Positions 11,851 to 29,231 of a DNA stretch of 64,000 bases are shown in pieces. Made by a program: the position numbers and the translations under genes. This DNA is from a plasmid. Where the stretch lies: sequence record NZ_CP044080.1; one strand, written 5' to 3'. Each line of letters opens with the position of its first letter. Positions within the stretch are counted from its first letter, which is position 1. Below the pieces are notes generated by a model. That model saw nothing but the letters and a program-made list of their open reading frames with translations, had not been told where the DNA came from and did not search any database.

Positions 11851-11971
11851 CTGCACATGCAGAAACTTTTTCACCGCAAGATTACACTTGCTCATGCAGC
11901 AGGTGTGGGCTTACACTTTGCCTGTCCTGCAATGCCGACCTGTGCAGGATCCGCGCAACTCGGGGGGAGCG

Positions 11972-12745
11972 TTGAGCGATTTCGTGCGTCAGGACAGGAT
12001 TGTGGCCCTGCTGGATGAGCGACCTTTCGCATCGGTGCGCGATCTGCAAAAGCTGATCGGCGTGTCGGGCGCCACCATCCGCCGCGACATCGAAAAGCTG
12101 AACGACGCCGGACGGGCCCGCAAGGTCTATGGCGGGGTCGCGGCGATCGAACGCGGCACGCGCACGGCCGCGCTGCCTTTCGTGGAAAACCGCGACATCG
12201 CAGTCGCCGCCAAGCGGGCCATCGCGCGCGAGGCCGAGCGGCTGGTCCAGGACGGCACCGCCATCATGATCCACGGCGGATCGACCTGCTTTCACTTCGG
12301 CTGTCGCATCGCACATCGCAACCTGCGCGTCTTCACGAACTCGATGCCGCTGGCCGCCTACCTGTCGGAATACGGCACCTGCCTTCTGACCGTGGGCGGG
12401 GGCGACCTGCATCGCGATCCAGGCATCCTTTATGATGTGTCGGACCACCTGTCGCGCTTCTATGCGGCGCAGTTCTTTGTCGGCGCGCTGGGGGTCAGCG
12501 ACCAGGGCATTCTGGAACAGCACCCGCTGCTGGTGCGCCTGGCCGACGAGATGAGCCGGACCGCCTCCGAGGTGATCCTGCTGGCCGACAGCCGCAAGTT
12601 CAGCGTCCGCCCCCCGACCGTCGCCCTGCCCTTTTCCCGCATCAGCCGCGTCGTCACCGACGACGGCCTCAGCGACGCCCATGCCCGGATGCTGGAGCGG
12701 GCGGGCGTCGAGGTCATCGTCGCCCAGATCGAGAGGGAACCATGA
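11972..12745 (+). CDS. DeoR/GlpR-family transcriptional regulator
   Basis: Within ORF 11888..12745. The HTH is [34 protein letters not shown] and the C-terminus is a DeoR sugar-binding domain. The start is uncertain: TTG at 11972 follows GGGGGGAG, and GTG at 11984 is an alternative. Confidence 0.75.
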
Positions 12746-14289
12746 GCCCGTCACCCATCCTTGAGATGCGCAACATCTCCAAGACCTTCGGGCCGGTGCG
12801 CGCGCTGCGCGACGTCAGCCTGACGGTCTATCGCGGCGAACTGCATGCCCTGATGGGCGAGAACGGCGCCGGCAAGTCGACGCTGATGAAGATCCTGTCG
12901 GGCGCCTATATCGCCGATCCCGGCGGCAGCATCACCATCGAGGGAAAGCCCCAGGCCGAGGCGCGCGGCGCCGTCGCCGTGATCTATCAGGAACTGTCGC
13001 TGGCCCCGAACCTGACCGTGGCCGAGAACATGTTCCTGGGGCGCGAGATCGCGACGCGCGGCGTCGTGGACCGCGCCGGCACCCGCGAATGCGCCCAGCC
13101 GATCCTGGACCGGCTGGGGGTCAGCTTCGACGCGCGCACCTTGGTGGGCACCCTGTCGCTGGGCGAACGCCAGATGGTGGAAATCGCCCGCGCCCTGACC
13201 ACCGACGCCCGGCTGATCGTGATGGACGAGCCTACGACCTCGCTGTCGGCGCGCGAAACCGAGCGCCTGTTCGAAGTCATCGCCCGGCTGAAGTCCGAAG
13301 GCATCGCGATCATCTACATCAGCCACCGCATGGAGGAGGTCTATGCCTTGGCCGACCGCTGCTCGGTCCTGCGCGACGGGGTCTATATCGGCACGTTGGA
13401 CCGCGACGAGCTTTCGGCGGCGCGGCTGGTGCAGATGATGGTCGGCCGCGACCTGGACAGTTTCTACAAAAAGGAACACATCGCCTCGCCCGACCATTCC
13501 GGCACGCCGCTGATGCGGGTGCGCGACATGGCGGACGGCAGGCTGGTCAAGCCCTGCTCGTTCGACCTGTACCGGGGCGAGGTGCTGGGCATCGCGGGGC
13601 TGGTCGGCTCGGGCCGGACAGAGCTGGCGCGGCTGATCTATGGCGCCGATCCGCGCGTCAGCGGCACGGTGGAGCTGGACGGCAAGCCCGTCGCCACCAC
13701 GGACCCGCGCACCAGCCTGGCAAGCGGCATCGCCTATCTGACCGAGGACCGCGCCAAGCTGGGCCTGTTCCTGGACATGTCCATATCCGACAACGTGAAC
13801 GTGGGCGTGATCCAGCGCGACGCGGGCACCGGGGGACTGCTGAACTTCGCCGCCGCCGCACGGCGGGCGGGCGATGCGATCAAGGCGCTGGCGGTCAAGG
13901 CGCCCTCGGCCAAGATGCCGGTCGGCGGCCTGTCGGGCGGCAACCAGCAGAAGGTGCTGATCGCGCGGCTTCTGGAAACCGGCCCCCGCGTCGTCATCCT
14001 GGACGAACCCACGCGCGGCGTGGACGTGGGCGCGAAATCCGAAATCTACAAGCTGATCGACGGACTGGCCCGGCGCGGCGTCGGCGTCATCGTCATATCC
14101 AGCGAACTGGCCGAGATCATCGGCACCTGCGACCGCGTGCTGGCCATGCGCGAGGGCCATATCGCGGGCGAGGTCGCATCATACCCCGGCCAGCCGATCA
14201 GCCAGGAAGCCATCATGGAACTGTCGACCGGCACCGCGGCCGGCGCGACGACTGGAACGGCGGCCGAACCCGCCACGGAAGGAGCGTGA
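12742..14289 (+). CDS. Sugar ABC transporter ATP-binding protein with duplicated ABC domains (RbsA/MglA-like)
   Basis: 515 aa. There are two Walker A motifs (GENGAGKST and GLVGSGRT), two LSGG signatures and two Walker B motifs. Confidence 0.9.
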
Positions 14290-14290
14290 A

Positions 14291-15265
14291 ATGACCGACC
14301 AGACCAGCCCCGCCGCCCGCCAGCGCCTGCGCACCATGATGAGCGTGGTGGGCATGTTGCCCGTGCTGATCCTGCTTGCCGTGATTTTCGAGGTCATGAG
14401 CGGCCGGTTCATGTCGGTCAACAACCTGTCGAACGTCATGCAGCAGGCCTCGATCAACATCGTCCTGGCCTCGGGGATGACCTTCGTGATCCTGACCGGG
14501 GGGATCGACCTGTCGGTGGGCTCGATCCTGGCCACCTCGGCGATGGTCGCGGTCATCGTCTCGCTGATCCCCGAGGTCGGCTGGCTGGGCGTCCCGGCGG
14601 CGATGGGGGTGGGACTGGCCTGCGGGCTTGCGAACGGCATCCTGATATCGGCGTTGAAGCTGCCGCCCTTCATCGTGACGCTGGGGTCGCTGACCGCCGT
14701 CCGGGGCATAGCCCGGCTTCTGGGCAACGACACCACCGTCTTCAACCCCGACCTGCCCTTCGACGTGATCGGCAACGGCAGCCTGTTCGGCATCCCCTGG
14801 CTTGCGATCATCGCCTTCGTGGTGGTGCTGGCCTCCTGGTTCGTCCTGAAACGCACCGTGCTTGGCACCTGGATCTATGCCACCGGCGGCAACCCCGAGG
14901 CGGCGCGCCTGACCGGCATCAAGGTGCCGGTGGTGCTGCTGTTCGTCTATGGCATCTCGGGCCTGTTCGCGGGCCTGGGCGGCGCGATGGCGGCGGCGCG
15001 GCTTTACGCGGCGAACGGGCTGCAACTGGGCCAGGCCTATGAACTGGACGCCATCGCCGCGGTGATCCTGGGCGGCACCAGTTTCGTCGGCGGCATCGGC
15101 TCGATCTGGGGAACGCTCGTGGGCGCGCTCATCATCGCGGTGCTGTCGAACGGGCTGATCCTGATCGGGGTCAGCGACATCTGGCAATATATCGTCAAGG
15201 GCCTCGTCATCATCGCGGCCGTGGCGCTGGACCGCTATCGCCAGAAGGGCGGCGCGCGGACCTGA
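14291..15265 (+). CDS. Sugar ABC transporter permease (RbsC/AraH-like)
   Basis: 324 aa polytopic membrane protein with a typical RbsC-type permease fold, directly after the ATPase gene. Confidence 0.88.
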   Translation: MTDQTSPAARQRLRTMMSVVGMLPVLILLAVIFEVMSGRFMSVNNLSNVMQQASINIVLASGMTFVILTGGIDLSVGSILATSAMVAVIVSLIPEVGWLGVPAAMGVGLACGLANGILISALKLPPFIVTLGSLTAVRGIARLLGNDTTVFNPDLPFDVIGNGSLFGIPWLAIIAFVVVLASWFVLKRTVLGTWIYATGGNPEAARLTGIKVPVVLLFVYGISGLFAGLGGAMAAARLYAANGLQLGQAYELDAIAAVILGGTSFVGGIGSIWGTLVGALIIAVLSNGLILIGVSDIWQYIVKGLVIIAAVALDRYRQKGGART

Positions 15266-15301
15266 ACCCTTTCACAACGCATATAACGGGAGGAAAACCA
15301 C

Positions 15302-16240
15302 ATGCGTTTCACGAAAACCCTGGCCTCGGCGCTTGCCCTGGCGGCGGTCTCGGCGGTGCCGGTCGCGGCCAAGGACCTCAACAGCGTCGGCATCTCGGTC
15401 GGGCTTCTGGGCAACCCCTTCTTCGTCGCCACCATCAAGGGGATCGAGGATGCGGCCAAGAAGATCAACCCGAACGTCAAGGTCACCTCGGTTTCGGCCG
15501 ACTACGACCTGAACAAGCAGGTCAGCCAGATCGACAGCTTCGTCGCGGCGGGCGTGGACATCATCATGCTGAACGCCGTCGACGCCCAGGCCATCGGCCC
15601 GGCCGTCAAGCGCGCGACCGACGCCGGCGTGATCGTCGCGGCCTTTGACGTGTCGGCCCCCGGCGCGACCGTCACCGTGATGACGAACAACGTCCAGGCC
15701 GGCGAAAAGGCCTGCGCCTATCTGGCCGAGAAGCTGGGCGGCAAGGGCGACATCGTCATCGTGAACGGCCCCTCGTCGTCCTCGATCCTGGACCGGGTCA
15801 AGGGCTGCAAGGACGAGCTGGCCAAGCACCCCGACATGAAGATCCTGTCCGACGACCAGAACGCTCAGGGCTCGCGCGATGGCGGGCTGAACGTGGGCCA
15901 GACCCTGCTGACCCGCTTCGACAAGATCGACGGGGTGTTCGCGATCAACGACCCGACCGCCATCGGCTTTTCGCTGGCGGCCAAGCAGGCCAACCGCAAC
16001 GAATTCATCATCACCGCGGTCGACGGCGCCCCCGACATCGAGAACGAGCTGAAATCCGGCGATGGGCTGATCAAGGCCTCGGCCTCGCAGGACCCCTACA
16101 CCATGGCGGGCCAGGCGCTGGAAATGGGCTATCAGGCGCTGCAGGGAACCGTGCCCGACCCCGACACCGTCCTGCTGGAGCCCGAGTTGATCACCCATGA
16201 CAACATCGGCGAATACAAGGGCTGGACCTCGCCCCGCTAA
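15302..16240 (+). CDS. Periplasmic sugar-binding protein (RbsB-like, PBP type I)
   Basis: 312 aa with a signal peptide MRFTKTLASALALAAVSAVPVAA. LacI/RbsB-type periplasmic binding fold motifs are present. Confidence 0.88.
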   Translation: MRFTKTLASALALAAVSAVPVAAKDLNSVGISVGLLGNPFFVATIKGIEDAAKKINPNVKVTSVSADYDLNKQVSQIDSFVAAGVDIIMLNAVDAQAIGPAVKRATDAGVIVAAFDVSAPGATVTVMTNNVQAGEKACAYLAEKLGGKGDIVIVNGPSSSSILDRVKGCKDELAKHPDMKILSDDQNAQGSRDGGLNVGQTLLTRFDKIDGVFAINDPTAIGFSLAAKQANRNEFIITAVDGAPDIENELKSGDGLIKASASQDPYTMAGQALEMGYQALQGTVPDPDTVLLEPELITHDNIGEYKGWTSPR

Positions 16241-16297
16241 GGACCAACGGGCCGTGCGGCGCGCGCCGCGCGGCCCTTTCCCAAAGGAACCCGACCC

Positions 16298-16993
16298 ATG
16301 ACCGACGACGAGCTGCGCCGCGCCGTCCTTGACGCCAATCTGGACACCGTGCACCACGGGCTAGTGATCTCGACCTTCGGCAACGCCAGCGGCATCGACC
16401 GCAATGCCGGCCGCATCCTGATCAAGCCCAGCGGCGTGGCCTATGACCGCCTGACCCCGGCCGACATGGTGCCCTGCGACCTGGATGGCCGCAGCCTGGA
16501 CAACCGGCTGCGCCCCTCCTCGGACCTGGCGACCCATGCGGTGCTGTATCGGGCTTTCGCGGACATCGGCGGCGTGGTCCATACCCATTCGACCTATGCG
16601 ACCATCATGGCCCAGTCCCACCGGCCGGTCCCCTGCCTGGGCACCACCCATGCCGATTACTTCCACGGCACGATCCCGGTGACGCGCGACCTGACGGCCG
16701 AGGAGATCGCCCAGGATTACGTCGGCAACACCGGCGCCGTCATCGTGGAAACCTTTGCTGACCTCGACCCGCTGGCGATCCCCGCTGTCCTGGTTGCGGG
16801 CCATGGCCCCTTCACCTGGGGCCGCACCCCGGCCGAGGCCGTCCACAACGCCCTGATCCTGGAGCAGGTCGCGAAAATGGCGTGGCATGCCATGGTCTTG
16901 AACCCGGATCCTCAACCGATTTCGCAGGCGCTTCTGGACCGCCACTTCCTGCGCAAGCACGGTGCGCAGGCCACTTACGGACAGGATGGCTAG
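16298..16993 (+). CDS. Class II aldolase/epimerase, L-ribulose-5-phosphate 4-epimerase (AraD/SgbE)-like
   Basis: 231 aa. Motifs FGNASGIDR, IKPSGV and HTHSTYA match the AraD family. Confidence 0.85.
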   Translation: MTDDELRRAVLDANLDTVHHGLVISTFGNASGIDRNAGRILIKPSGVAYDRLTPADMVPCDLDGRSLDNRLRPSSDLATHAVLYRAFADIGGVVHTHSTYATIMAQSHRPVPCLGTTHADYFHGTIPVTRDLTAEEIAQDYVGNTGAVIVETFADLDPLAIPAVLVAGHGPFTWGRTPAEAVHNALILEQVAKMAWHAMVLNPDPQPISQALLDRHFLRKHGAQATYGQDG

Positions 16994-16994
16994 G

Positions 16995-18572
16995 ATGATC
17001 GTCGCAGGCGTCGATTTCGGCACGCTCAGCGTGCGCGTCACCCTGATGGATTGCGATGACGGCGCGACGCTGGGCGGCGCGGTCGCGTCCTATCCGCTGA
17101 AACGCAGCGCCGCCGATCCGCTGCTGGGCGCGCAGTCCCACGACGACCAGATGGATGCCCTGGCCCGCGCCATGCGCGAGGCGGTGGCCAAGGCGGGCAT
17201 CCGGGGCGAGGCGGTGGCGGCGCTGGCCTGCGACACCACCGGATCAAGCGTCGTGATGGTCGACCGGGACCTGCGCCCGCTGGCCGACTATTACCTGTGG
17301 TGCGACCACCGCGCCCATCGCGAGGCCGAGGAGATCACCGCCCTTGGCCGCGCCGAGGGGCTCGAGGCGCTGAAATGGTGCGGCGGGACCTATTCGCACG
17401 AATGGGGCTATGCCAAGGTCCTGCATTTCCTGCGCCACAACCCGGACCTGCGGGACCGCTTCGCCACCGCGCTGGAACATTGCGACATGGTGGCGGCGAC
17501 GCTGTGCGGCATCCGCGATCCGGCCGATCTGGCGCGCAGCATCTGCGCGGCCGGGCACAAGTGGATGTATGGCGCCGCCTGGGGTGGGCTGCCGCCGCAG
17601 GATTTCCTGAGCCGCGTCGATCCGCTGCTTGACGGGATCAACGAACGGCTTGCCGGCCGCTTCCTGACCTCGGATGCCGTCGCGGGGCACCTGTCGCCGG
17701 AATGGGCCGAACGACTGGGCCTCGCGCCCGGCATTCCGGTGCCCGTGGGCGCCTTTGACGCGCATTGGGACGCGGTGGGCGCGGGCGCGCGGCCCGGCGA
17801 CATCGTGAACGTGGTCGGCACCTCGACCTGCATCATCGCCATGGGGCCACAGGGCTTTCCGCCCGTGCCCGGCCTTTGCGGCGTGGTGCCAGGCAGCGTC
17901 CTGCCCGGCTGGACCGGGATCGAGGCCGGCCAGTCCGCCACCGGCGACGTCTTCGACGCCATCGCCCGGCGCGCCGGCCGCGACGTGGCGGCGCTATGTG
18001 CCGAGGTCGCCCACCTGCCCCCCGGCGGCAGCGGGCTGATGCGGTTGAACTGGGACAATGGCGACCGCACGGTGCTGGTGCGCCCGGACCTGGGCGCGGT
18101 CACGCTGGGCTGGGACCTGAACCACACCGCCGCGGACGAGATGCACGCCGCGATCGAGGGCATGGCCATGCATGTCCGCATCATCACCGAGCGCATCGAG
18201 CAGGGCGGGATGGAAACCGCCCGTATCGTCAACGCCGGCGGCATCCCGCAGCGCAACGACCTGCTGAACCAGGTCTATGCCGATGTGCTGGGGCGCGAAG
18301 TGCATGTCCCCGCCCAGTCCCCCGTGGGCACCGGCTCGTGCATCTTTGCCGCGATGGCGGCGGGGGCCTTCGACACGTTCCAGGTGGCGCAGCAGGTCCT
18401 GTGCCCGCCCACCCGGGTGTTTTTCCCGCGTGGCGGCTATGACGCTCTGAACGCCCTGTTCCGCGACCTTTACTTCGGCTTGGGCGAAGGGCGGCCGCTG
18501 GACCTGGCGGGGGTTCTGCCGCAGCTGCGGGCCTTTCGCCTGCAAGGCGCCGGGGCGCGCGGCCATGACTAG
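16995..18572 (+). CDS. FGGY-family carbohydrate kinase (ribulokinase/xylulokinase-like)
   Basis: The N-terminus MIVAGVDFGTLSVRVTL is the FGGY phosphate-1 motif. An ATG at 16986 is an alternative start. The ORF as listed begins at 16962. Confidence 0.85.
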   Translation: MIVAGVDFGTLSVRVTLMDCDDGATLGGAVASYPLKRSAADPLLGAQSHDDQMDALARAMREAVAKAGIRGEAVAALACDTTGSSVVMVDRDLRPLADYYLWCDHRAHREAEEITALGRAEGLEALKWCGGTYSHEWGYAKVLHFLRHNPDLRDRFATALEHCDMVAATLCGIRDPADLARSICAAGHKWMYGAAWGGLPPQDFLSRVDPLLDGINERLAGRFLTSDAVAGHLSPEWAERLGLAPGIPVPVGAFDAHWDAVGAGARPGDIVNVVGTSTCIIAMGPQGFPPVPGLCGVVPGSVLPGWTGIEAGQSATGDVFDAIARRAGRDVAALCAEVAHLPPGGSGLMRLNWDNGDRTVLVRPDLGAVTLGWDLNHTAADEMHAAIEGMAMHVRIITERIEQGGMETARIVNAGGIPQRNDLLNQVYADVLGREVHVPAQSPVGTGSCIFAAMAAGAFDTFQVAQQVLCPPTRVFFPRGGYDALNALFRDLYFGLGEGRPLDLAGVLPQLRAFRLQGAGARGHD

Positions 18573-18588
18573 CGCGTCTTGCGCCCTG

Positions 18589-19377
18589 CTACTTGACCGC
18601 CAGCCCGGCGGTCAGCCCACCGTCGATGCCATAGTCGGCGCCGGTGATGAAGCCCGCGCGGTCCGAGCACAGGAAGGCCACCAGTTCGGCCACCTCCTCG
18701 GGCTCGCCAATCCGCCCCAGGGGATGGGCCGCGCCGAAGCGGGCAAAGACCTCGTCCTGCGGCAGTTCGGCGCCCAGCTTGCGCGCCGCCAACTCCAGGA
18801 TCGGCGTGCGGACCGACCCGGGCGAGACCGAGTTTACCCGCACCCCGGCCGCCGCATGGTCCAGCGCCATCGCGCGGGTCAGCGCATGGATCGCCCCCTT
18901 GCTTGCGACATAGGCCGCGACGCCCTGCTGGCAGGCGTGACCCTGGGCCGAGGACAGGTTGACGATGGCGCCGCCGCCCCGCCGCGCCATTTCCGGGATG
19001 CCGAAGCGGCCGGTCAGCACGATGCCACCCACGTTGACCGCCATGCAGCGCGTGAAATCGTCCCAGTCCGTGTCCAGCACCGTGCCGTAAGGGTGGACCG
19101 CCGCCGCGTTCACGATGATGTCGAGCCCGCCGAACAGGTCGACCGCCTCGGCCACCGCGGCCTCGACCGAGGTGTCGTCGGCCACGTCCAGCGCCAGCGC
19201 CGTGATCGACAGGCCCTGCGCGACCGCCATGGCCGCAAGCTCCTGGTTGGCGGCGATGTCGATGCCGCCGGCCAGCACTTCGGCCCCGCCCTGCGCCAGC
19301 CGGATCGCGCTGGCCCGCCCGATCCCCGTGGTCCCCGTCACCAGCGCGACCTTGCCCGCAAATTCACGCTCTGCCAT
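18589..19377 (-). CDS. SDR-family short-chain dehydrogenase/reductase
   Basis: The TGxxxGxG motif is VTGTTGIGRA. The catalytic YxxxK lies in VAAYVASKGAIHALTRAMA. Confidence 0.9.
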   Translation of the reverse strand: MAEREFAGKVALVTGTTGIGRASAIRLAQGGAEVLAGGIDIAANQELAAMAVAQGLSITALALDVADDTSVEAAVAEAVDLFGGLDIIVNAAAVHPYGTVLDTDWDDFTRCMAVNVGGIVLTGRFGIPEMARRGGGAIVNLSSAQGHACQQGVAAYVASKGAIHALTRAMALDHAAAGVRVNSVSPGSVRTPILELAARKLGAELPQDEVFARFGAAHPLGRIGEPEEVAELVAFLCSDRAGFITGADYGIDGGLTAGLAVK

Positions 19378-19472
19378 CCGCCCGTCTCCCTGTCCTGCCC
19401 GGCAATCCTATCGGTTTCGCGCGGGAATTGAAGGGGGCGGCCAATACCCTCCAAAGCCATGGAAAGCACTTC

Positions 19473-20259
19473 ATGAAACGCTCGGAAGTCAATGATATCC
19501 TTCGCCAAGGCCAGGCCTTCATCCAGTCCTTCGGCTGGCATCTGCCGCCCTTTGCCGACTGGACGCCCGACCAGTTCCGCGCGCGCGCCGATCAGGCGCA
19601 AGCCATCCTGTCGGCCGGTCTGGGCTGGGACCTGACCGATTTCGGACAGGGCGACTATGCGCGCACCGGGCTTTTCCTGTTCACGGCGCGCAATGGATCC
19701 GCGGCCGACCTGCAGGCCGGGCGCGGCATGTGCTATGCCGAAAAGATTCGGACAGGGCGACTATGCGCGCACCGGGCTTTTCCTGTTCACGGCGCGCAAT
19801 GGATCCGCGGCCGACCTGCAGGCCGGGCGCGGCATGTGCTATGCCGAAAAGATCATGTGGGTGCGCGATGGCCAGGTGACCCCCATGCACCGCCACATCG
19901 TCAAGGCCGAGGACATCATCAACCGCGGCGGCGGCGATCTGGTGCTGAAGGTCCACGGCGCGCAAGCCGACGGCACGGTCTGCCGCGACCGGCCCGTGAC
20001 GGTGGCCTGCGACGGCCTGCCCCGGCAGATCGGGCCCGACCAGCACCTGCGGCTGAAGCCCGGCGAAAGCGTCACCCTGCTGCCCGGCGTCTGGCACAGC
20101 TTCTGGGCCGAGGCGGGCGACGCGCTGGTGGGCGAGGTCTCGACCGTGAACGACGATATGACCGACAATGTCTTCGAGGCCCCTGTCGGCCGCTTCGCCC
20201 GCATCGACGAGGACGAAGCGCCCTGGCGGCTGCTGGTGTCGGACTATGGGGGATTCTGA
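19473..20259 (+). pseudogene. D-lyxose (D-mannose) ketol-isomerase, cupin family, frameshifted by an internal 106-bp tandem duplication
   Basis: MKRSEVNDILRQGQAFIQSFGWHLPPFADWTPDQF…FGQGDYARTGLFLFTARNGSAADLQAGRGMCYAEKI is D-lyxose-isomerase-like. The reading frame then shifts by +1 after the first repeat copy and resumes in the second copy (…CYAEKIMWVRDGQVTPMHRHIV…WHSFWAEAG…). Confidence 0.75.
19642..19853. repeat. Perfect direct tandem duplication, 2 x 106 bp
   Basis: The unit tcggacagggcgactatgcgcgcaccgggcttttcctgttcacggcgcgcaatggatccgcggccgacctgcaggccgggcgcggcatgtgctatgccgaaaagat occurs twice back to back. 106 is not a multiple of 3. Confidence 0.9.
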
Positions 20260-20328
20260 CGGGTTCCGCCTTGCGCGACTGGCGGTCTTGTTGGATAACG
20301 CCCGCAAGCAAGAACAGAGGTTCCCGCC

Positions 20329-20640
20329 ATGCGAGTCCGTATCTACAAGCCTGCGCGCAACGCGATGCAATCCGGCATCGCCCGCACCAAGCTTTGGGTG
20401 CTTGAATTTCCGGCAGACGATTCGCGCGAGATCGACCCGCTGATGGGCTGGACCAGCAGCGACGACACACAAAGCCAGGTCCGCCTGCGGTTCGAGACGC
20501 GCAAGCAGGCCGAGGACTATGCCCGCGAGAAGGGCCTGGAGTTCGAGGTAATCGAGCCCCACTCTCGCGCCCCGAACGTCCGTCCCCGCGGCTACGGCGA
20601 AAACTTCGCCCCCGACCGCCGCGCGCCCTGGACGCACTAA
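20329..20640 (+). CDS. NDUFS4-like ETC complex I subunit family protein (alphaproteobacterial small conserved protein)
   Basis: 103 aa. [27 protein letters not shown]…[39 protein letters not shown] matches the conserved NDUFS4/AQDQ-type family. Confidence 0.8.
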
Positions 20641-21131
20641 CAGGCGCAGGCAGGCTGGGCCAAGCGGCCCGGCCGGGATCGGGCGCAGGCTGTTGCGCCG
20701 TTGAGCTCCCCTCGGGGGTGGGCATCCCGCCCCTGTCCGACGTTGCAGGCCCGGTTTGATGGCATGGCATGGCCTGCGAAGGCCGGCACCGATACCCGTG
20801 CCTTCACGCCGATGAAGACTTCTCGCCTGTCATTCCGATGCCGAACTGATCCGCTGCCGGACATGGGACCGCCCTGGCTGGGGCGATGCCCAGTCGCGCC
20901 CAGCGTCGTCGCCTAATACGCCAATCACGCGCCGAACATGGGCTCGAGACCTGCAAAATTCGCGCAGCCCTCGCCAATACACCCAGCAAATCCAAGATAA
21001 GTATCTGTTCTTTATAGAAATAAATCAGGGCTGTCCCGACGCCAAAGATGTAGACAGATAATCCTATCTATCCGTATAGTTTTGACAGTTGCCTCTCCAA
21101 AACCAATGCAACGTCAACAACAGGGATTTCC

Positions 21132-22343
21132 ATGATCAACCGTCGTCGCTTCCTGACCACCTCGACGCTCGCCGCGGCATCGCTGGCCGCGCCGGGCCTC
21201 GTGACCCGCGCCCTGGCCGCTGGCGAGGCGCTGAAGATCGGCGTGCCGGTGCCGATCTCGGGTGCCTTTGCGGCCAATGGCAAATTCGCCACGATCGGCG
21301 CTGCCCTGGCCGCGGAAGAGGTCGCAGCCGCGCATGGCGTGCAGGTCTCGACCCTGGACCTGGATACCGAGGGCAAGCCCGCCACCGCCGTGCGCAAGGT
21401 GCAGGATGCCTTGGCACAGGACGGGATCAAGCTGTTCGCGGGCGGCATCCTCTCGTCGGAATCGCTGGCCATGGGCAAGGAGATCGGGCGCGGCGGCGGC
21501 GCCTTCATGACCACCGCCGGCGCGGACGAGATCACCGGCGTCGATTGCAACAAGGCCACCTTCCGCTGGTCGGTGCCGACCTTCGGCGCCATCAACCAGA
21601 CCGTGCGGCCGATCATCGACGCGCTGCCCGACGCCAAGAAATGGTATACGATCACGCCGCAATATGTCTTTGGCGACGGGCTCTTGAACGCCGCCAAGGC
21701 GGTCTTTGCCGAAAAGGGCATCGACCATGTCGGCAACAGCTATCATTCGCTGACCGACAAGGAATTCTCGGGCTATCTGACCAATGCCATCGCGGCGCAG
21801 CCCGATGTGCTGCTGCTGCTGAACTTCGGCGCCCAAAGCTCGGACACGCTGCGGCAGGCGGTCAGCTTCGGCCTGAAGCAGCGCATGACCATCGTGGTCG
21901 CCTGGGCCTCGGGGCTCGAGCAGTTCGAGGCGCTGGGGCCGGACATCTGCGAGGGCGTCTATTTCGGGGCGCAATACTGGCACGGGGCGGATTCGCCGCT
22001 GAACCGCGAACTGGTCGCCAAGGTCCAGGAAAAGCACGGCTTCAACCCGAACTATTCCTTTGCCGGCAGCTACATCATCAGCAAGCTGCTGCTTGAAGGC
22101 GCGGTCAAGGCCGGCTCGCCCGAGGGACCGGGGGTCGCCAAGGCGCTGCAAGGGCTGAAATACGCGGGCCTGACCGGCGAAGAGGAAATCCGTGCCGCCG
22201 ACCACCAGGTCATCAAGGATTACTACCTGCTGAAGGGCAAGGCCAAGGCCGACATGGCCGACAAGGACGATTACGCCGAAATCGTCAGCTCGGGCAAATC
22301 GTTCCTGTCGCCCGAGGAAGCCGGCTGCAAGATGCCCGCCTGA
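21132..22343 (+). CDS. ABC transporter substrate-binding protein, branched-chain amino acid/amide (LivK-like) family
   Basis: 403 aa with a Tat-like signal RRRFLTTSTLAAASLAAPGLVTRALAA. A PBP type I (Leu/Ile/Val-binding) fold is present. Confidence 0.85.
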   Translation: MINRRRFLTTSTLAAASLAAPGLVTRALAAGEALKIGVPVPISGAFAANGKFATIGAALAAEEVAAAHGVQVSTLDLDTEGKPATAVRKVQDALAQDGIKLFAGGILSSESLAMGKEIGRGGGAFMTTAGADEITGVDCNKATFRWSVPTFGAINQTVRPIIDALPDAKKWYTITPQYVFGDGLLNAAKAVFAEKGIDHVGNSYHSLTDKEFSGYLTNAIAAQPDVLLLLNFGAQSSDTLRQAVSFGLKQRMTIVVAWASGLEQFEALGPDICEGVYFGAQYWHGADSPLNRELVAKVQEKHGFNPNYSFAGSYIISKLLLEGAVKAGSPEGPGVAKALQGLKYAGLTGEEEIRAADHQVIKDYYLLKGKAKADMADKDDYAEIVSSGKSFLSPEEAGCKMPA

Positions 22344-22411
22344 TCCCCGCCCCGCGCGCGCCCCGCGCGGCCCATGCCGTGCGGGGACCTTCCGGTTTCA
22401 GGGAGAGTCCC

Positions 22412-23266
22412 GTGATCTACCTTTTCCAGGTTCTGAACGGCATCGGTCTGGGGATGCTGTATTTTCTGCTGGCCGTCGGGCTTAGCATCATCTTTGGCCT
22501 GCTGCAGTTCGTGAACTTTGCCCATGGCGCGTTCTATCTGCTGGGCGCCTATCTGACCTATGACCTGACCACGCGCGGCTTCAGCTTCTGGCTGGCAATG
22601 CCGCTGGCCACGCTGATCGTCGCCGCCATCGCCGCGCTGATCGAGGCGCTGCTGCTGCATCGCATCTACAAGCTGCCGCATACCTTCCACATCCTGGTCA
22701 CCGTGGGCCTTGCCTTGGCGATCCAGGAGCTGGTGATCATCGCCTGGGGACCGCTGGGCGGTTCGGTGCCCGCGCCCGAAGGGCTGCAGGGCGTGGTGAT
22801 CCTGGGCGATTTCATCTATCCGCAATACCGCCTATTCACCATCGGCTTCACCGCCGTCCTGGCCGGGCTGCTTTGGTGGCTGCTGGAGGGGACGCGGCTG
22901 GGCGCCATCGTGCGCGGCGGCTCGGAATCGGCGTCGAACATGGCGCTGCTGGGCTACAACACCATGCGCATCAACACCGTCGTCTTCGGCTTCGGCGCCG
23001 GTCTTGCAGGCCTTGCCGGGGCGCTTGCGGCGCCGATCCGGGGGGTCGAGCCCTTCATGGGGGCCGAGGCGCTGTCGATCGCCTTCGTCGTCGTCGTGAT
23101 CGGCGGCATGGGCAGCTATACCGGCGCGCTGGTCGCCGGACTGCTGGTCGGCGTCGTGCAAAGCCTGATGGCCACGATCTGGCCCGAGGGCGCGCGCCTG
23201 ATGATCTATGTCGGCATGGCCATGGTCATCGCGCTGATGCCGCGCGGCCTTTTGGGGAGGGCATGA
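22412..23266 (+). CDS. Branched-chain amino acid ABC transporter permease (LivH-like)
   Basis: GTG start after the RBS GGGAGAG. VIYLFQVLNGIGLGMLYFLLAVGLSIIFG is a LivH N-terminus. Confidence 0.85.
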   Translation: MIYLFQVLNGIGLGMLYFLLAVGLSIIFGLLQFVNFAHGAFYLLGAYLTYDLTTRGFSFWLAMPLATLIVAAIAALIEALLLHRIYKLPHTFHILVTVGLALAIQELVIIAWGPLGGSVPAPEGLQGVVILGDFIYPQYRLFTIGFTAVLAGLLWWLLEGTRLGAIVRGGSESASNMALLGYNTMRINTVVFGFGAGLAGLAGALAAPIRGVEPFMGAEALSIAFVVVVIGGMGSYTGALVAGLLVGVVQSLMATIWPEGARLMIYVGMAMVIALMPRGLLGRA

Positions 23267-24231
23267 GCATGAACCCGCTGGACAAACCCGTCGCGCAGAT
23301 GGCGCTGGCCCTTGCCACCGCGCTGATCCTGCCGCTGTTCCTGAAATCGGGCATCCTCGCGACCGAGATCCTGATCTTTGCCATGGTGGTCGCGGCCTGC
23401 AACCTGCTTCTGGGCTATACCGGCCTTCTGTCCTTCGGTCAGGGCATCTTCTTCGGCATCGGCACCTATGTCGCGGGGATCTGCCTGACGCGCTGGCAGG
23501 TGCCGGTTCCGGTCGTGCTGGCGGGCGCTGCCCTGCTGGGCGCGCTGACGGCGACCCTGGTCGGCTGGCTGTCGATCCGGCGGCAGGGGGTCTATTTCGT
23601 CATGCTGACGCTGGCCTTCTCGCAGCTTTTCTACTTCCTCGCCTATACGTTCTCGGGCCTGACCGGGGGCGACAACGGGCTGCTTGGCGTGCCACGCCCC
23701 AGCATCGGCGGGGCCGAGCTGAACGCGCCTTGGTCCTACTACACCTATGTCGCGATCTGCTTCCTGGCGGTCTTTGCGCTGCTCATCATGGTCACGCAAT
23801 CGACCTTCGGCCGCACGCTGCTGGCGATCCGCGAGAACGAGGGCCGCGCCGCCGCCATCGGCTTTCCGACCCGCATCTTCAAGATCGAGGCCTTCGCCAT
23901 CTCGGGCGCGGTCACCGCCCTTGGCGGGGCGCTGCATGCCATGCTGATCGGCGTCGCGCCGCTGTCGAACATCGAATACCACACCAGCGAGCTGATCCTG
24001 ATCATGACCATCATCGGCGGCAGCTCCAGCCTGTTCGGCTCGGTGCTGGGGGCGGGGTTCTACCTGCTGCTGGCCGATGCGCTGTCGGCGATCTGGCCGC
24101 GCTGGCTGCTGTTGCTGGGGCTGGTTCTGGTCGCGGTGGCACTGTTCCTGCAACGCGGCCTTTGGGGCCTGGTCGAGCGCGGCTATGACCTTGTGGCGCG
24201 CCGCGGCAAGACCCCGGCGAAGGAGCATTGA
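23263..24231 (+). CDS. Branched-chain amino acid ABC transporter permease (LivM-like)
   Basis: MSMNPLDKP… starts at an ATG overlapping the LivH stop (ATGA). Polytopic with a LivM-type fold. Confidence 0.85.
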   Translation: MSMNPLDKPVAQMALALATALILPLFLKSGILATEILIFAMVVAACNLLLGYTGLLSFGQGIFFGIGTYVAGICLTRWQVPVPVVLAGAALLGALTATLVGWLSIRRQGVYFVMLTLAFSQLFYFLAYTFSGLTGGDNGLLGVPRPSIGGAELNAPWSYYTYVAICFLAVFALLIMVTQSTFGRTLLAIRENEGRAAAIGFPTRIFKIEAFAISGAVTALGGALHAMLIGVAPLSNIEYHTSELILIMTIIGGSSSLFGSVLGAGFYLLLADALSAIWPRWLLLLGLVLVAVALFLQRGLWGLVERGYDLVARRGKTPAKEH

Positions 24232-24232
24232 G

Positions 24233-25000
24233 ATGACCGACATCGTATTGCAGACCAAAGGGCTGGGCGTCAAATACGGCAACTTCCATGCCCTGGCCGA
24301 GGTGGACCTGCAGATCCGCCGCAACTCGGTCCATTCGGTGATCGGGCCGAACGGCGCCGGCAAGACCACGCTGTTTCACGCGCTGACCGGGCGGGCGCAG
24401 GCGTCCTCGGGCCGGATCGAGCTGGACGGGCGCGACATCACTGGCACCTCGGACGACGACCGGGTGCGGTTGGGGATCGCGCGGTCCTTTCAGGTGACAA
24501 GCCTGTTCCCGAACCTCGCGCTGCGCGAGAACCTGCGGCTGGCCGCGCAGGGCCGCACGCCCTGGCAGGCGCTGGCGCCTTGGCGGCGGGCGGAATCGAA
24601 CGCCCAGGCGCTGGCCATCGCCGACGAGGTGATCCAGCGGCTCGAGCTGTCCCGCGTGGCCGACCGGCTGGCGGGCGAGCTGTCGCATGGCCAGCAGCGC
24701 CGGCTGGAAGTCGGCATGGCGATGGCCGCCCGCCCCCGGGTGATCCTGCTGGACGAGCCGACCTCGGGCATGGGCATCGACGATATCGAGGCGATGAAGC
24801 AGCTGATCCGCGACCTTGGCCGCGACCACACGGTGCTGTTCATCGAACACAACATGGGCATCGTCATGAACATCTCGGACATGGTCACGGTGATGCGGCT
24901 GGGCCGCAAGCTGGTCGAGGGGCCGCCCGCGCAGGTCCGCGACGACCCCGAGGTGCGGCGCGCCTATCTGGGCAACATGATCACGGGGGACATCGCATGA
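24233..25000 (+). CDS. ABC transporter ATP-binding protein (LivG-like)
   Basis: MTDIVLQTKGLGVKYGNFHALAEVDLQI… carries Walker A GPNGAGKTT and the signature LSHGQQRRLEV. Confidence 0.88.
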   Translation: MTDIVLQTKGLGVKYGNFHALAEVDLQIRRNSVHSVIGPNGAGKTTLFHALTGRAQASSGRIELDGRDITGTSDDDRVRLGIARSFQVTSLFPNLALRENLRLAAQGRTPWQALAPWRRAESNAQALAIADEVIQRLELSRVADRLAGELSHGQQRRLEVGMAMAARPRVILLDEPTSGMGIDDIEAMKQLIRDLGRDHTVLFIEHNMGIVMNISDMVTVMRLGRKLVEGPPAQVRDDPEVRRAYLGNMITGDIA

Positions 25001-25701
25001 CCGCCGCGCTGCAACTGACGGATCTGCACGCCTATTACGGCAAAAGCCACATCCTGCAAGGCGTCAGCCTGACCGTGGGCGCGGGCGAGATCGTGACCCT
25101 GCTGGGCCGCAACGGTGCCGGCAAAAGCACCACGCTGAAGACCGCCGTGGGCCTGATCGCACCGCCCCAGGGCCGGGTCGAACTATGCGGGCGCGACGTG
25201 ACCGGGCAACCGGCCTATCGCATCGCCTCGGCCGGGCTGTCGCTGGTGCCCGAGGATCGCGGCATCTTCCAGCTGCTGACGGTCGAGGAGAACCTGCGCA
25301 TCGCCCAGCGGCGCGGCTCGCCTTGGGGGCTGTCCGACATCTATCGCATCTTTCCGCGCCTGCAAGAGCGGCGCAGGAACGGCGGCGGTCAGCTTTCCGG
25401 GGGCGAACAGCAGATGCTGTCGATCGCGCGCGCGCTGCTGAATGGGCCCAAGGTGCTGATGCTGGACGAGCCGGTCGAGGGGCTGGCCCCGATCATCGTC
25501 GAGGAGATCGTGGCCCAGGTCCGGCTGATCCGCGACGAAGGCGTGCCGATCCTGCTGGTCGAGCAGAACCTGGCCGTGTGCAGCCAACTGGCCGACCGGC
25601 ATTACATCCTGGAGCTTGGCCGCATCGTGCACGAGGCCAGCGCCCAGGAATTCCGCAACGCCCCCGAGGTCATCGACCGCTATCTGGGCGTCAAGGCTTA
25701 A
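24997..25701 (+). CDS. ABC transporter ATP-binding protein (LivF-like)
   Basis: MTAALQLTDLHAYYGKSHILQGVSL… carries Walker A GRNGAGKST and the signature LSGGEQQMLSI. Confidence 0.88.
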   Translation: MTAALQLTDLHAYYGKSHILQGVSLTVGAGEIVTLLGRNGAGKSTTLKTAVGLIAPPQGRVELCGRDVTGQPAYRIASAGLSLVPEDRGIFQLLTVEENLRIAQRRGSPWGLSDIYRIFPRLQERRRNGGGQLSGGEQQMLSIARALLNGPKVLMLDEPVEGLAPIIVEEIVAQVRLIRDEGVPILLVEQNLAVCSQLADRHYILELGRIVHEASAQEFRNAPEVIDRYLGVKA

Positions 25702-25710
25702 GGAACCCCA

Positions 25711-26970
25711 ATGTCAAACCTGAACATCGACGCCGAGCGGCTGTGGGACAGCCTGATGCAAACGGCGGAAATCGGCGGCACGCCGGATGGCGGCATCGCG
25801 CGGCTGACGTTGTCGGATGACGACCGGCGGGTGCGCGACTGGCTGGCGCAGCAATGCGCCGCGCTGGGGATGACGTTGCAGGTGGACGAGGTCGGCAACA
25901 TGTTCGCGACCCGCCCCGGGCGGCGCGCCGACCTGCCCGCCATCGCGATGGGCAGCCACCTGGACACCCAGCCCACCGGCGGCAAGTTCGACGGCGTGCT
26001 GGGGGTGCTGGGCGGGCTCGAGGTGCTGTGCACGCTGGACGCCGCCGGCTACCAGACCGAGGCGCCCCTGATGCTGGTCAACTGGACGAATGAGGAAGGC
26101 TCGCGCTTTTCGCCCGCGATGCTGGGCTCGGGCGTCTGGGCGGGGGTTTACAGCCGCGACCATGCCGACGCCCGGCTGGACGCGACGGGCGACAGCTTTG
26201 GCGCCAGCCTGGACCGCATCGGCTGGCGCGGGCCGCTGAAGGCCGGCGCGATCCGCTTTGGCGCGATGTTCGAATTGCACATCGAGCAAGGCCCGATCCT
26301 TGAGGACGAGGGCGCCCAGATCGGCGTCGTGCAGGGCATCCAGGGCATGCGCTGGTTCGACCTCGTACTGACCGGAACGGCGGCACATACCGGCTCGACC
26401 CCGATGGGGATGCGGCGCAATGCGCTGCTGGGCATGGCGCAGGTGATCGCGGGCATCGACCGCATCGCCAAGGCGCATGACGGCGCCGTGGGCACTATCG
26501 GCTATCTCGACATCAGCCCCAATTCGCACAACGTGATCCCTGGCGAGGTGCGGGCGACCATCGACCTGCGCCACCCCTCGGACGCGGTGCTGGACGTGAT
26601 AGAGGCCGAGGTCGCGGCGCTGGCGGCCGAGACAGCCGCAGGCGCAGGGCTGGACCAGCGCCTGGTGCCGATCTCGCGCACGGCGGCGGTGGCCTTCGAT
26701 GCGGATTGCATCGCCTCGGTCCGGGCGGGGGCGCAGGCGGCGGGCTTTTCGACACGCGACATCATTTCGGGCGCGGGCCACGACGCAGCCCATGCGGCGG
26801 CGGTCGCGCCAACGACGATGATCTTTGTCCCCTGTGCCGGCGGGCTGTCCCACAACCCGGCGGAATCGACGGAACCGGCCGAATGCGCCGCCGGCGCGCA
26901 GGTCCTGCTGGAGGCCGTGCTGGACTATGACCGCCGCATGGCCGAGGCCCGGTCGGAGGCAACCGCATGA
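25711..26970 (+). CDS. M20-family Zn-dependent amidohydrolase (allantoate amidohydrolase / N-carbamoyl-L-amino-acid hydrolase type)
   Basis: 419 aa. IAMGSHLDTQPTGGKFDGVLGVLGGLEV and …MFELHIEQGPILE… match the AmaB/AllC family. Confidence 0.8.
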   Translation: MSNLNIDAERLWDSLMQTAEIGGTPDGGIARLTLSDDDRRVRDWLAQQCAALGMTLQVDEVGNMFATRPGRRADLPAIAMGSHLDTQPTGGKFDGVLGVLGGLEVLCTLDAAGYQTEAPLMLVNWTNEEGSRFSPAMLGSGVWAGVYSRDHADARLDATGDSFGASLDRIGWRGPLKAGAIRFGAMFELHIEQGPILEDEGAQIGVVQGIQGMRWFDLVLTGTAAHTGSTPMGMRRNALLGMAQVIAGIDRIAKAHDGAVGTIGYLDISPNSHNVIPGEVRATIDLRHPSDAVLDVIEAEVAALAAETAAGAGLDQRLVPISRTAAVAFDADCIASVRAGAQAAGFSTRDIISGAGHDAAHAAAVAPTTMIFVPCAGGLSHNPAESTEPAECAAGAQVLLEAVLDYDRRMAEARSEATA

Positions 26971-28451: not shown

Positions 28452-28460
28452 CTCACGCGA

Positions 28461-29231
28461 ATGGATCGGGACATGCCGGCGGGCCGCGAACGCAAGCTGA
28501 CCCGGATCAAGCTGTCGGACCAGATCGCCGAGGACCTGCGCCGCCGCATCGCCCGCGACGGGCTGCGCCCCGGCGACCGCCTGCCGCACGAGCGCGCGCT
28601 GATCGAGCATTACGGCTGCTCCAAGGGGACCATGCGCGAGGCGCTGAAAGCGCTGGAAGTCGAGGGGCTGGTGCGGATGCTGTCAGGGCCCAACGGCGGA
28701 CCCGAGATCCAGCACGCCTCGATCGACATCGTGACCCAGCAGCTGCGACAATACCTGCATTTCCAGAAGCTGGACTTCGCCCATGTCTACGCGCTGCGCC
28801 AGTCGCTCGAGGTGGCGCTGGCGCGCAACGTAACCGGCCGGCTGAGCCCGGGCCAGATGGACCGGCTGGCGGAAAACATCCGCATCTGCGAGACGGCCAA
28901 TGCCGCCCGCGACCGCGCCGTGGTCCGCAGCGCCGAGACCGAGTTCCACGACATCCTCTGCGAGGCGTCGGACAACGTGATCCTGGTCTTCATGTGCCGT
29001 TTCCTGAACAGCATGCTGCGCGACCTGGTCAGCTATCGCAGCGACAGCATGCGCGAGCACGAGCATTTCGGCGAGGCGAATATCGAAAGCCACAAGCAAC
29101 TGCTGGCCGCCTTCTGGGCCGGCGACGCCGAGGCCGCGGGCAAGATCATGCACGACCATATGTGCTGCGCCGAAGGCTACATGCGACGGCTGGACGCCTC
29201 GTTCCGCTCAGACCTGCTGAGCCGGTTCTGA
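28461..29231 (+). CDS. GntR-family transcriptional regulator (FadR/FCD subfamily)
   Basis: HTH IAEDLRRRIARDGLRPGDRLPHERALIEHYGCSKGTMREALKALEVEGLV plus an FCD domain. Probably the regulator of the upstream transporter/hydrolase operon. Confidence 0.8.
   Translation: MDRDMPAGRERKLTRIKLSDQIAEDLRRRIARDGLRPGDRLPHERALIEHYGCSKGTMREALKALEVEGLVRMLSGPNGGPEIQHASIDIVTQQLRQYLHFQKLDFAHVYALRQSLEVALARNVTGRLSPGQMDRLAENIRICETANAARDRAVVRSAETEFHDILCEASDNVILVFMCRFLNSMLRDLVSYRSDSMREHEHFGEANIESHKQLLAAFWAGDAEAAGKIMHDHMCCAEGYMRRLDASFRSDLLSRF

What the first reader, a model, noticed from the sequence alone, without database searches (positions are those of the whole stretch)
19642..19853. Perfect 106-bp tandem duplication inside the D-lyxose isomerase gene causes a +1 frameshift (recent pseudogenisation, assembly artefact, or a reversible switch)
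Seen in sequence: a 106-bp unit is repeated twice with no mismatch.
- The upstream reading frame (MKRSEVNDIL…CYAEKI) reads copy 1 correctly, then goes out of frame.
- The downstream frame (…FGQGDYARTGLF…CYAEKIMWVRDGQV…WHSFWAEAG…DYGGF*) reads copy 2 correctly.
- Deleting one copy restores a single ~227-aa cupin-type D-lyxose isomerase.

Perfect identity implies a very recent event. Such duplications can revert by recombination, which would make this a potential on/off switch for the gene. It is located in a pentose utilisation locus.
Basis: seen in the sequence. Interest (0 to 1): 0.55.

Follow-up and report, generated by a model that had tools for sequence, protein, structure and literature searches.

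The report
Tandem duplication breaks lyxose isomerase gene
One sequenced strain of the bacterium Paracoccus yeei carries a fresh, perfect 106-base tandem duplication that frameshifts its D-lyxose isomerase gene; the mutation is real but ordinary and strain-specific, and nothing shows that it works as a genetic switch.

Summary
Bases 19641-19746 and 19747-19852 are identical, and one extra shared T extends the match to 19853. They lie inside a D-lyxose/D-mannose isomerase gene that starts at ATG 19473. Because 106 = 3x35+1, the frame breaks after codon 92. Removing one copy gives a 226-aa protein that matches Pfam Lyx_isomer end to end and is 100% identical to an intact protein found in other Paracoccus yeei samples.

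All of roughly 30 related contigs that span the site (98-100% DNA identity) carry one copy, including one with identical flanks. The junction is absent from two large public collections.

An assembler error is unlikely. Independent k=31 assemblies of three read sets (SRR8991243-5) break exactly at 19670 and 19824, which are the only branch points a duplication would create.

The window appears to be P. yeei FDAARGOS_643 plasmid CP044080.1. There the 3' fragment is annotated as an ordinary 200/188-aa CDS rather than a pseudogene.

A second disrupting allele (Q14*) occurs in six other contigs, so the gene looks dispensable.

Reversion by loss of one copy is mechanistically expected. However, the duplication is not recurrent and has no flanking homology, so a programmed switch is not supported. 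Interest is low.

The parts
19473..20259 (+). D-lyxose/D-mannose isomerase gene disrupted by the duplication. It is 787 nt here and 681 nt / 226 aa in all relatives.
   Evidence: The restored protein matches Pfam PF07385 over 1-222 of 222 positions, E 3e-97. It matches PDB 3kmh D-lyxose isomerase at E 3e-60 and is 100% identical to P0001.
19641..19746 (+). Copy 1 of the 106-nt unit. It encodes native residues 57-92 (FGQGDYARTGLFLFTARNGSAADLQAGRGMCYAEKI) in the frame of the gene's start codon.
19747..19852 (+). Copy 2 of the 106-nt unit, identical to copy 1. It is in frame with the 3' part of the gene. The new junction lies at 19746|19747 (…GCCGAAAAGA|TTCGGACAGG…).
   Evidence: The junction 26-mer is absent from genome contigs and metagenome contigs and from all related loci fetched up.
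19853..19853 (+). Single T shared by the start of the unit and the base after it. This is the only microhomology at the duplication endpoints.
   Evidence: the period-106 identity spans 19641-19853.
19473..20405 (+). Frameshifted reading frame actually open from the native start: 92 native residues followed by 218 out-of-frame residues. It runs 77 nt into the next gene.
19657..20259 (+). 200-aa ORF that public annotation calls as the gene (29 out-of-frame residues from copy 1, then native residues 57-226). RefSeq uses a 188-aa version.
   Evidence: P0130 (QEU07087.1) and P0129 (WP_397294203.1) are identical to this ORF or its shorter form.
18589..19377 (-). Divergently transcribed SDR-family oxidoreductase, 95 nt from the isomerase start.
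   Evidence: Pfam adh_short_C2, E 4e-59
16962..18572 (+). Ribulokinase (FGGY family). Gene callers start it about 33 nt further in, giving 525 aa.
   Evidence: NCBIfam NF003154 ribulokinase, 486.5 bits against a cutoff of 428; gene calls.
16298..16993 (+). L-ribulose-5-phosphate 4-epimerase (AraD-like)
   Evidence: NCBIfam NF006047, 321.8 bits against a cutoff of 257
12742..16240 (+). Sugar ABC transporter (ATPase, permease, periplasmic binding protein), preceded by a DeoR-type regulator at about 11888-12745.
   Evidence: Pfam ABC_tran, BPD_transp_2, Peripla_BP_4. DeoR domains appear on the matching gene of L001.
20329..20640 (+). Downstream NDUS4-like 'ETC complex I subunit' gene. Its start is overrun by the frameshifted frame.
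   Evidence: Pfam PF04800, E 2e-34; stop of the frameshifted frame at 20405

Best explanation
This is a spontaneous, very recent, strain-specific tandem duplication of 106 bp inside a D-lyxose/D-mannose isomerase gene. The gene lies on an extrachromosomal replicon of Paracoccus yeei, apparently strain FDAARGOS_643, plasmid CP044080.1.

The endpoints share only one base, so the duplication most likely arose by illegitimate template switching or slippage during replication, not by recombination between pre-existing repeats (inferred).

Because 106 = 3n+1, translation from the native start leaves the frame after residue 92. That is upstream of the cupin metal-binding residues (HxH…E at 104-111, His173). 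The product is an aberrant 310-residue protein, so the allele is almost certainly null (inferred).

The duplication is present in the sequenced DNA and is not an assembler error (shown indirectly).

Like any perfect tandem repeat of about 100 bp, it should be lost precisely at a measurable rate, by RecA-independent slippage or template switching, or by homologous recombination. That would restore the gene (inferred by analogy).

Nothing indicates that the forward event recurs or that the cell uses it as a switch. The gene appears dispensable in this species.
For: Repeat and frames.

Identity of the gene: full-length Pfam Lyx_isomer match and a match to 3kmh over residues 1-224. The restored protein equals P0001, a 226-aa protein seen in other samples.

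One copy in every relative: about 30 contigs spanning the site at 98-100% identity give two BLAST pieces that overlap by one unit. ERR1009409_112 has 0-2 mismatches over about 12 kb and a single copy. The junction 26-mer is absent from 185,579 species-representative genomes and from the JGI metagenomes.

Real in the reads: Logan contig SRR8991244_190 is 100% identical and ends at 19670. Contigs of SRR8991243, SRR8991244 and SRR8991245 are 100% identical and all start at 19824. A k=31 de Bruijn simulation gives outer branch nodes at 19641-19670 and 19824-19853 with the duplication, and none without it. No other indels separate the window from near-identical contigs over 12-17 kb, so the assembly is clean here.

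Dispensability: an independent nonsense allele, Q14* (C40T), occurs in six contigs that carry six different sets of linked SNPs. P. yeei genomes average about 190 pseudogenes, and 36-49% of them lie on extrachromosomal replicons (PMC11578231).

Reversion precedent: in E. coli, 101-bp tandem repeats in tetA are deleted precisely and independently of RecA. About 8% of cells show this in a uup radD mutant, which is 96-fold above wild type (PMC7145654).
Against: No read-level data could be inspected. Copy number, and the fraction of the culture carrying the duplication, are therefore unknown. The de Bruijn graph looks the same for a pure two-copy population and for a mixture.

The three runs have consecutive accession numbers. 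They probably come from one DNA preparation, so the mutation could have arisen during laboratory culture.

Loss of function is inferred, not measured. An internal ATG at 19657 with a weak AGGG Shine-Dalgarno-like motif could give a 200-aa product that retains the cupin core.
Confidence: 0.85

Rival explanations
1. Assembly or sequencing artefact: the genome really has one copy and an intact gene.
For: Perfect tandem duplications can be produced by long-read assemblers or at contig joins. No reads could be examined directly. The exact 200-aa and 310-aa products are not on record in the contig index, so the source record itself could not be fetched.
Against: Independent k=31 assemblies of three runs break at exactly 19670 and 19824. 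The simulation shows that these branch points exist only if the unit-to-unit junction k-mers are in the reads. One-copy relatives assemble straight through, for example ERR1009409_112. The region has no other indels against near-identical contigs.
Confidence: 0.04
2. Programmed or selected reversible switch (phase variation or bet-hedging): the gene toggles off by duplication and on by loss of one copy, as in pneumococcal cap3A.
For: A perfect tandem repeat can revert precisely (PMC7145654). Intragenic tandem duplications are a documented on/off mechanism in S. pneumoniae cap3A (Waite et al. 2001, as summarised in PMC11163986). The gene belongs to an accessory sugar-use locus, where on/off variation could be tolerated.
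Against: The forward step shows no sign of being frequent. Only 1 nt of microhomology lies at the endpoints. No second occurrence of this or any other duplication was found in about 35 related contigs, and every full-length copy of the gene is 681 nt. The junction is absent from two collections. The species also inactivates the gene by an ordinary nonsense mutation. That fits relaxed selection rather than a dedicated mechanism.
Confidence: 0.05
3. Adaptive loss of function: knocking out the isomerase was selected, in the human host or in culture, rather than being neutral decay.
For: Two independent disrupting alleles exist in one species: the duplication here, and Q14* on several haplotypes. 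Clinical and skin isolates dominate the sampled genomes.
Against: Most strains keep an intact gene, and its variation is mostly at third codon positions. This indicates long-term purifying selection. One singleton allele plus one segregating nonsense allele is also what neutral loss of a dispensable gene would give. No phenotype data exist for this strain.
Confidence: 0.12
4. The gene is still functional: the annotated 200-aa (or 188-aa) ORF is translated from an internal start and yields an active short isomerase.
For: The ORF 19657-20259 keeps the HxH…E and His173 cupin residues. GenBank and RefSeq annotate it as an ordinary CDS. Short-form D-lyxose isomerases of 175-204 aa exist (2y0o, 7nzo).
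Against: It lacks native residues 1-56, which align to the E. coli enzyme throughout, and replaces them with 29 out-of-frame residues. The weak alignment to the short-form enzymes (query 156 to residue 120 of 2y0o) implies that even they begin about 20 residues before residue 57. No start signal is evident beyond a weak AGGG. Every relative uses the 226-aa form, or carries Q14*.
Confidence: 0.04

Closest known systems
Tandem-duplication phase variation of the pneumococcal type 3 capsule gene cap3A (Waite et al. 2001; summarised in PMC11163986)
   Same: A spontaneous tandem duplication inside an ORF switches the gene off. Precise loss of the duplication restores it.
   Different: There the duplications arise repeatedly and at high frequency, with many sizes and positions, and give a selectable phenotype. 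Here a single allele occurs in a single strain, with no recurrence in about 35 relatives and no phenotype data.
Engineered 101-bp tetA tandem-repeat deletion reporters in E. coli (pSTL57; PMC7145654 and the Lovett-lab work cited there)
   Same: Almost the same anatomy: a direct tandem repeat of about 100 bp inside a gene creates a null allele, and precise deletion restores function. This gives the expected reversion mechanism (RecA-independent template switching or slippage).
   Different: Those are artificial constructs on multicopy plasmids in E. coli. This is a natural allele on a large low-copy replicon in an alphaproteobacterium, and its rates are unmeasured.
D-lyxose isomerase of E. coli O157:H7 (PDB 3kmh/3mpb), Pfam PF07385
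   Same: The restored 226-aa protein aligns over residues 1-224 (E 3e-60) and keeps the HxH…E…H cupin residues.
   Different: The score against the NCBIfam equivalog NF051472 is 256.5 bits, below its cutoff of 350, so substrate preference is not established. The gene here is frameshifted.
Simple-sequence-repeat contingency loci
   Same: Frameshifting by a change in repeat copy number within an ORF.
   Different: Those use many copies of 1-8-nt units that mutate at high rates in both directions. Here there are two copies of a 106-nt unit that did not pre-exist as a repeat.
IS-flanked 208.6-kb duplication used for bet-hedging in Burkholderia thailandensis (PMC9946442)
   Same: An unstable tandem duplication creates population heterogeneity.
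   Different: That one is RecA-dependent between pre-existing IS copies, spans many genes and acts through gene dosage. Here there are no flanking repeats, the event is intragenic, and it causes loss of function.

Membership tests
D-lyxose/D-mannose isomerase (Pfam PF07385, cupin) | Full-length match to the family profile above its gathering score | tested here: met
   Restored protein: 324.6 bits against a cutoff of 20.8, residues 1-223 on profile positions 1-222 of 222.
D-lyxose/D-mannose isomerase (Pfam PF07385, cupin) | Cupin metal-binding residues (HxH…E and a distal His) conserved relative to a solved enzyme | tested here: met
   H104, H106, E111 and H173 align with the matching residues of 3kmh. 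That these residues bind the metal is from my own knowledge of the E. coli structure.
D-lyxose/D-mannose isomerase (Pfam PF07385, cupin) | Equivalog-level match to NCBIfam NF051472 (same function assured) | tested here: not met
   256.5 bits against a cutoff of 350. Family membership is safe, but exact substrate preference is not.
D-lyxose/D-mannose isomerase (Pfam PF07385, cupin) | Uninterrupted reading frame in this genome | tested here: not met
   The frame breaks after codon 92.
Frameshift pseudogene (recent) | Disruption relative to intact orthologues in close relatives | tested here: met
   About 24 contigs carry an intact 681-nt gene at 98.8-100% identity.
Frameshift pseudogene (recent) | The lesion exists in the DNA and not only in the assembly | tested here: met
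   Contig breaks at 19670 and 19824 in three read sets match the simulated branch nodes. This is indirect, because the reads themselves were not seen.
Frameshift pseudogene (recent) | Loss of enzyme function or phenotype | not testable with these tools
   Needs growth tests on D-lyxose or an enzyme assay.
Tandem-duplication phase variation (cap3A type) | Duplications arise recurrently in the same gene (several alleles in a population) | tested here: not met
   No other duplication or length variant in about 35 related contigs. The junction is absent from two collections.
Tandem-duplication phase variation (cap3A type) | Precise reversion at high frequency | not testable with these tools
   Expected by analogy but not measured. 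The assembly graph cannot tell a mixed population from a pure one.
Tandem-duplication phase variation (cap3A type) | Both states give an advantage under alternating conditions | not testable with these tools
   No phenotype data for this strain.
Simple-sequence-repeat contingency locus | Tract of many short (1-8 nt) units in or before the ORF | tested here: not met
   TRF finds only the 106-nt, two-copy array in the gene.

The most novel reading that the evidence does not exclude
The 106-bp duplication is one captured 'off' state of a natural, reversible on/off polymorphism of a rare-sugar isomerase in Paracoccus yeei. Cultures would be mixtures of one- and two-copy cells, and loss or gain of the copy would let subpopulations switch use of D-lyxose, D-mannose or L-ribose. 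This would be a cap3A-like mechanism acting on a metabolic gene in an alphaproteobacterium.
Probability: 0.05. Interest if true: 0.45.

Novelty: new member of a known kind. Interest (0 to 1): 0.15.

Why it matters
The main value is to annotation. A regulatory-grade reference genome appears to list the 3' fragment of a broken gene as an ordinary 'D-lyxose/D-mannose family sugar isomerase' of 200 or 188 aa, whose first residues are out-of-frame translation. It should be flagged as a frameshifted pseudogene.

The strain is predicted to lack the activity that its relatives have, which is easy to test with the API 50 CH D-lyxose well.

The allele is also a ready-made natural reporter. Selecting for growth on D-lyxose would measure the loss rate of a 106-bp tandem repeat in Paracoccus.

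Together with the segregating Q14* allele, it shows that this gene is being lost in part of the species. Beyond that it is an ordinary mutation of a well-understood kind.

Tried and rejected
1. Exact look-ups of the 200-aa ORF, the 310-aa frameshifted ORF and P0130 in the contig index returned nothing. The source record could not be fetched. It was identified indirectly through cluster members and an IS3 coordinate match.

2. Searching the supplement of PMC11578231 for the replicon size 267632 gave only an unrelated hit.

3. I looked for a DNA secondary structure that would bring the duplication endpoints together. The junction-containing strand folds well (z = -3.0). In the reconstructed one-copy ancestor, however, the unit's ends are not paired with each other, so no structural explanation is claimed. 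The new junction happens to form a CCGAA-AAGA-TTCGG mini-palindrome, which I treat as coincidence.

4. The promoter/terminator scan of 19300-20700 found no promoter-like site. It found one terminator-like site, inside the next gene, at the frequency expected by chance. It is uninformative for this high-GC organism.

5. A search for a second isomerase copy in the window found none (tblastn).

6. Programmed ribosomal frameshifting as a rescue was considered and dropped. It would need a -1 slip and would leave a 35-residue insertion, and nothing in the sequence suggests it.

7. PLSDB does not hold the source replicon. The best plasmid hits are three other P. yeei replicons at 98.2-98.7% identity, each with one copy.

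Full report
**Observation**

The sequence at 19200-20400 contains a perfect tandem duplication.
- The repeat finder gives two 106-nt copies at 19641-19746 and 19747-19852, 100% identical.
- Tandem Repeats Finder gives period 106, 2.0 copies, 100% matches, no indels and score 426. The other seven arrays in the window score 51-86 and are imperfect.
- A script confirmed that the two copies are equal. The period-106 identity runs from 19641 to 19853, so one T is shared between the start of the unit and the base after it.

**Reading frames**

The gene starts at ATG 19473. That frame reads 92 native residues (MKRSEV…CYAEKI). It then goes out of frame and stays open until 20405, giving 310 residues, as is common in 68% G+C DNA. 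A second frame reads copy 2 correctly and ends at 20259. Removing one copy gives a 681-nt ORF of 226 aa.

**What the gene is**

- The restored protein matches Pfam PF07385 (D-lyxose isomerase) over the whole profile, positions 1-222 of 222, E 3e-97.
- It aligns over residues 1-224 with the solved E. coli O157:H7 D-lyxose isomerase 3kmh, E 3e-60.
- It is below the NCBIfam equivalog cutoff (256.5 bits against 350). The family is certain, but the preferred substrate is not.
- The cupin HxH…E motif (H104, H106, E111) and His173 lie downstream of the frameshift. The product made from the native start therefore lacks the catalytic core.

**Surroundings**

- Upstream on the same strand lie a DeoR regulator, a sugar ABC transporter, an L-ribulose-5-phosphate 4-epimerase and a ribulokinase, both enzymes scoring above their NCBIfam cutoffs.
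- A divergently transcribed SDR oxidoreductase sits 95 nt from the isomerase start.
- An NDUS4-like gene follows 69 nt after the stop.
- 'Pentose utilisation locus' is therefore correct.
- D-lyxose isomerases also interconvert L-ribose and L-ribulose (PMC6746899). Isomerase plus ribulokinase plus 4-epimerase would therefore make a complete L-ribose route to D-xylulose-5-phosphate. This is an inference only.

**Organism and source**

- Three Paracoccus yeei replicons in PLSDB match at 98.2-98.7% identity, each with one annotated isomerase gene.
- The 90%-identity protein cluster of the restored protein contains a 200-aa member (QEU07087.1) and a 188-aa member (WP_397294203.1). Both are from a 267,632-nt P. 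yeei plasmid.
- Their sequences are exactly the window's ORF 19657-20259 and a shorter version of it.
- The window's only IS3 transposase starts at 31370 on the plus strand. A supplement of PMC11578231 lists the same transposase at 191369..192604(+) on NZ_CP044080.1 of P. yeei FDAARGOS_643. That puts window position 1 at a round 160,000 offset.
- I therefore infer that the window is CP044080.1, about 160001-224000.
- The public annotation presents the 3' fragment as a normal CDS, with 29 (or 17) out-of-frame residues at its N-terminus.

**Comparison with relatives**

- Look-ups of the flanking genes returned 30 contigs from genomes and metagenomes.
- BLAST against the window shows 98-100% identity. 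Every contig that spans the site gives two pieces overlapping by one unit, which is the signature of one copy in the relative and two in the window.
- None of the loci fetched by then contains the junction. Every full-length copy of the gene is 681 nt.
- ERR1009409_112 has 0 mismatches over 9.3 kb around the site, 2 over a further 6.2 kb, and one copy.
- The duplication is thus younger than a divergence of about 1e-4.
- The junction 26-mer has no exact match in 185,579 species-representative genomes or in the JGI metagenome contigs.

**Is it an artefact?**

- Logan assemblies are built with k=31 (my own knowledge).
- Contig SRR8991244_190 is 100% identical to the window and ends at 19670.
- Contigs from SRR8991243, SRR8991244 and SRR8991245 are 100% identical and all begin at 19824.
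- A k=31 de Bruijn simulation of the window gives outer branch nodes at 19641-19670 (two predecessors) and 19824-19853 (two successors). The one-copy version gives none.
- The observed breaks are therefore exactly those expected if the unit-to-unit junction is present in the reads of all three runs. One-copy samples assemble straight through.
- This excludes an assembler error.
- It does not tell whether the culture was pure or mixed, nor whether the mutation arose in the laboratory. The three runs probably come from one DNA preparation.

**Mechanism**

- With only 1 nt of microhomology, the duplication was not templated by pre-existing repeats. Illegitimate template switching or slippage is the likely origin (inference).
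- Folding gave no convincing hairpin joining the endpoints in the ancestral sequence.
- The reverse step is well documented. In E. coli, 101-bp tandem repeats inside tetA, an almost identical design, are deleted precisely and without RecA. Deletion reaches 8% of cells in a uup radD mutant, 96-fold above wild type (PMC7145654).
- One-copy revertants are therefore expected in any large culture.

**Switch or accident?**

- Reversible capsule switching by tandem duplications in pneumococcal cap3A is the closest precedent (Waite et al. 2001, via PMC11163986).
- Its defining feature, frequent and recurrent forward duplication, was looked for here and not found.
- Instead, a different disrupting allele, Q14* (C40T), occurs in six other contigs carrying six different sets of linked SNPs.
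- Most other variation in the gene is at third codon positions. The gene has been under purifying selection, but it is now dispensable in part of the species.
- P. yeei genomes average about 190 pseudogenes, with 36-49% of them on extrachromosomal replicons (PMC11578231).
- The simplest reading is ordinary, recent pseudogenisation.

**Verdict**

- Recent pseudogenisation is well supported.
- An assembly artefact is unlikely.
- A programmed switch is unsupported, although physical reversibility is expected.
- The finding is a new instance of a known kind of mutation. Its practical value is for annotation and as a natural repeat-deletion reporter.
- Interest is low.

Noticed in passing
L015:5251-5934; L033-L037 (lyxose isomerase gene; equivalent to window 19512): A second disrupting allele of the same gene, Q14* (C40T, CAG to TAG), is present in six contigs from different samples, each with a different set of linked SNPs. 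It is therefore a segregating nonsense polymorphism in P. yeei. Gene callers then report 141-aa or 210-aa fragments.
   Followed up: partly
window 19657-20259: GenBank (QEU07087.1, 200 aa) and RefSeq (WP_397294203.1, 188 aa) annotate the 3' fragment as an ordinary D-lyxose/D-mannose isomerase CDS rather than a frameshifted pseudogene. Its first 29 or 17 residues are out-of-frame translation of copy 1.
   Followed up: yes
window 20697-29612: A segment of about 8.9 kb is absent from several P. yeei contigs (L014-L016, L018-L020). It carries a branched-chain-type ABC transporter, an M20 peptidase and a DUF1485/MlrC gene. Those contigs keep only a diverged M20 remnant (79% identity over about 440 nt in L016). 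This is a strain-variable indel right next to the locus.
   Followed up: partly
window 20260-20405: The frameshifted reading frame does not stop until 20405. Ribosomes would read across the 69-nt spacer and 77 nt into the NDUS4-like gene (start 20329), which could disturb that gene's translation. No terminator-like site lies between the two genes.
   Followed up: no
window 11888-20259: The gene set is DeoR regulator, sugar ABC transporter, L-ribulose-5-P 4-epimerase, ribulokinase, SDR and lyxose isomerase. It would make a complete L-ribose (via L-ribulose) pathway, since D-lyxose isomerases also act on L-ribose. The physiological substrate of the locus is unknown.
   Followed up: no
window 31370-32604: An IS3-family transposase (two overlapping frames, 1235 nt) is the only copy in the window. 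It served to place the window on NZ_CP044080.1.
   Followed up: partly
window 30392-30472: Imperfect 27-nt tandem repeats (2.1-2.6 copies) lie inside the 403-aa CAP/HemolysinCabind gene (29753-30964). The period equals the 9-residue RTX calcium-binding repeat, so they are probably coding repeats.
   Followed up: no
window 16962-16995: The longest ribulokinase ORF starts at GTG 16962 (536 aa) and overlaps the end of the epimerase gene. Gene callers on related contigs use a start about 33 nt downstream (525 aa), which abuts the epimerase stop.
   Followed up: no
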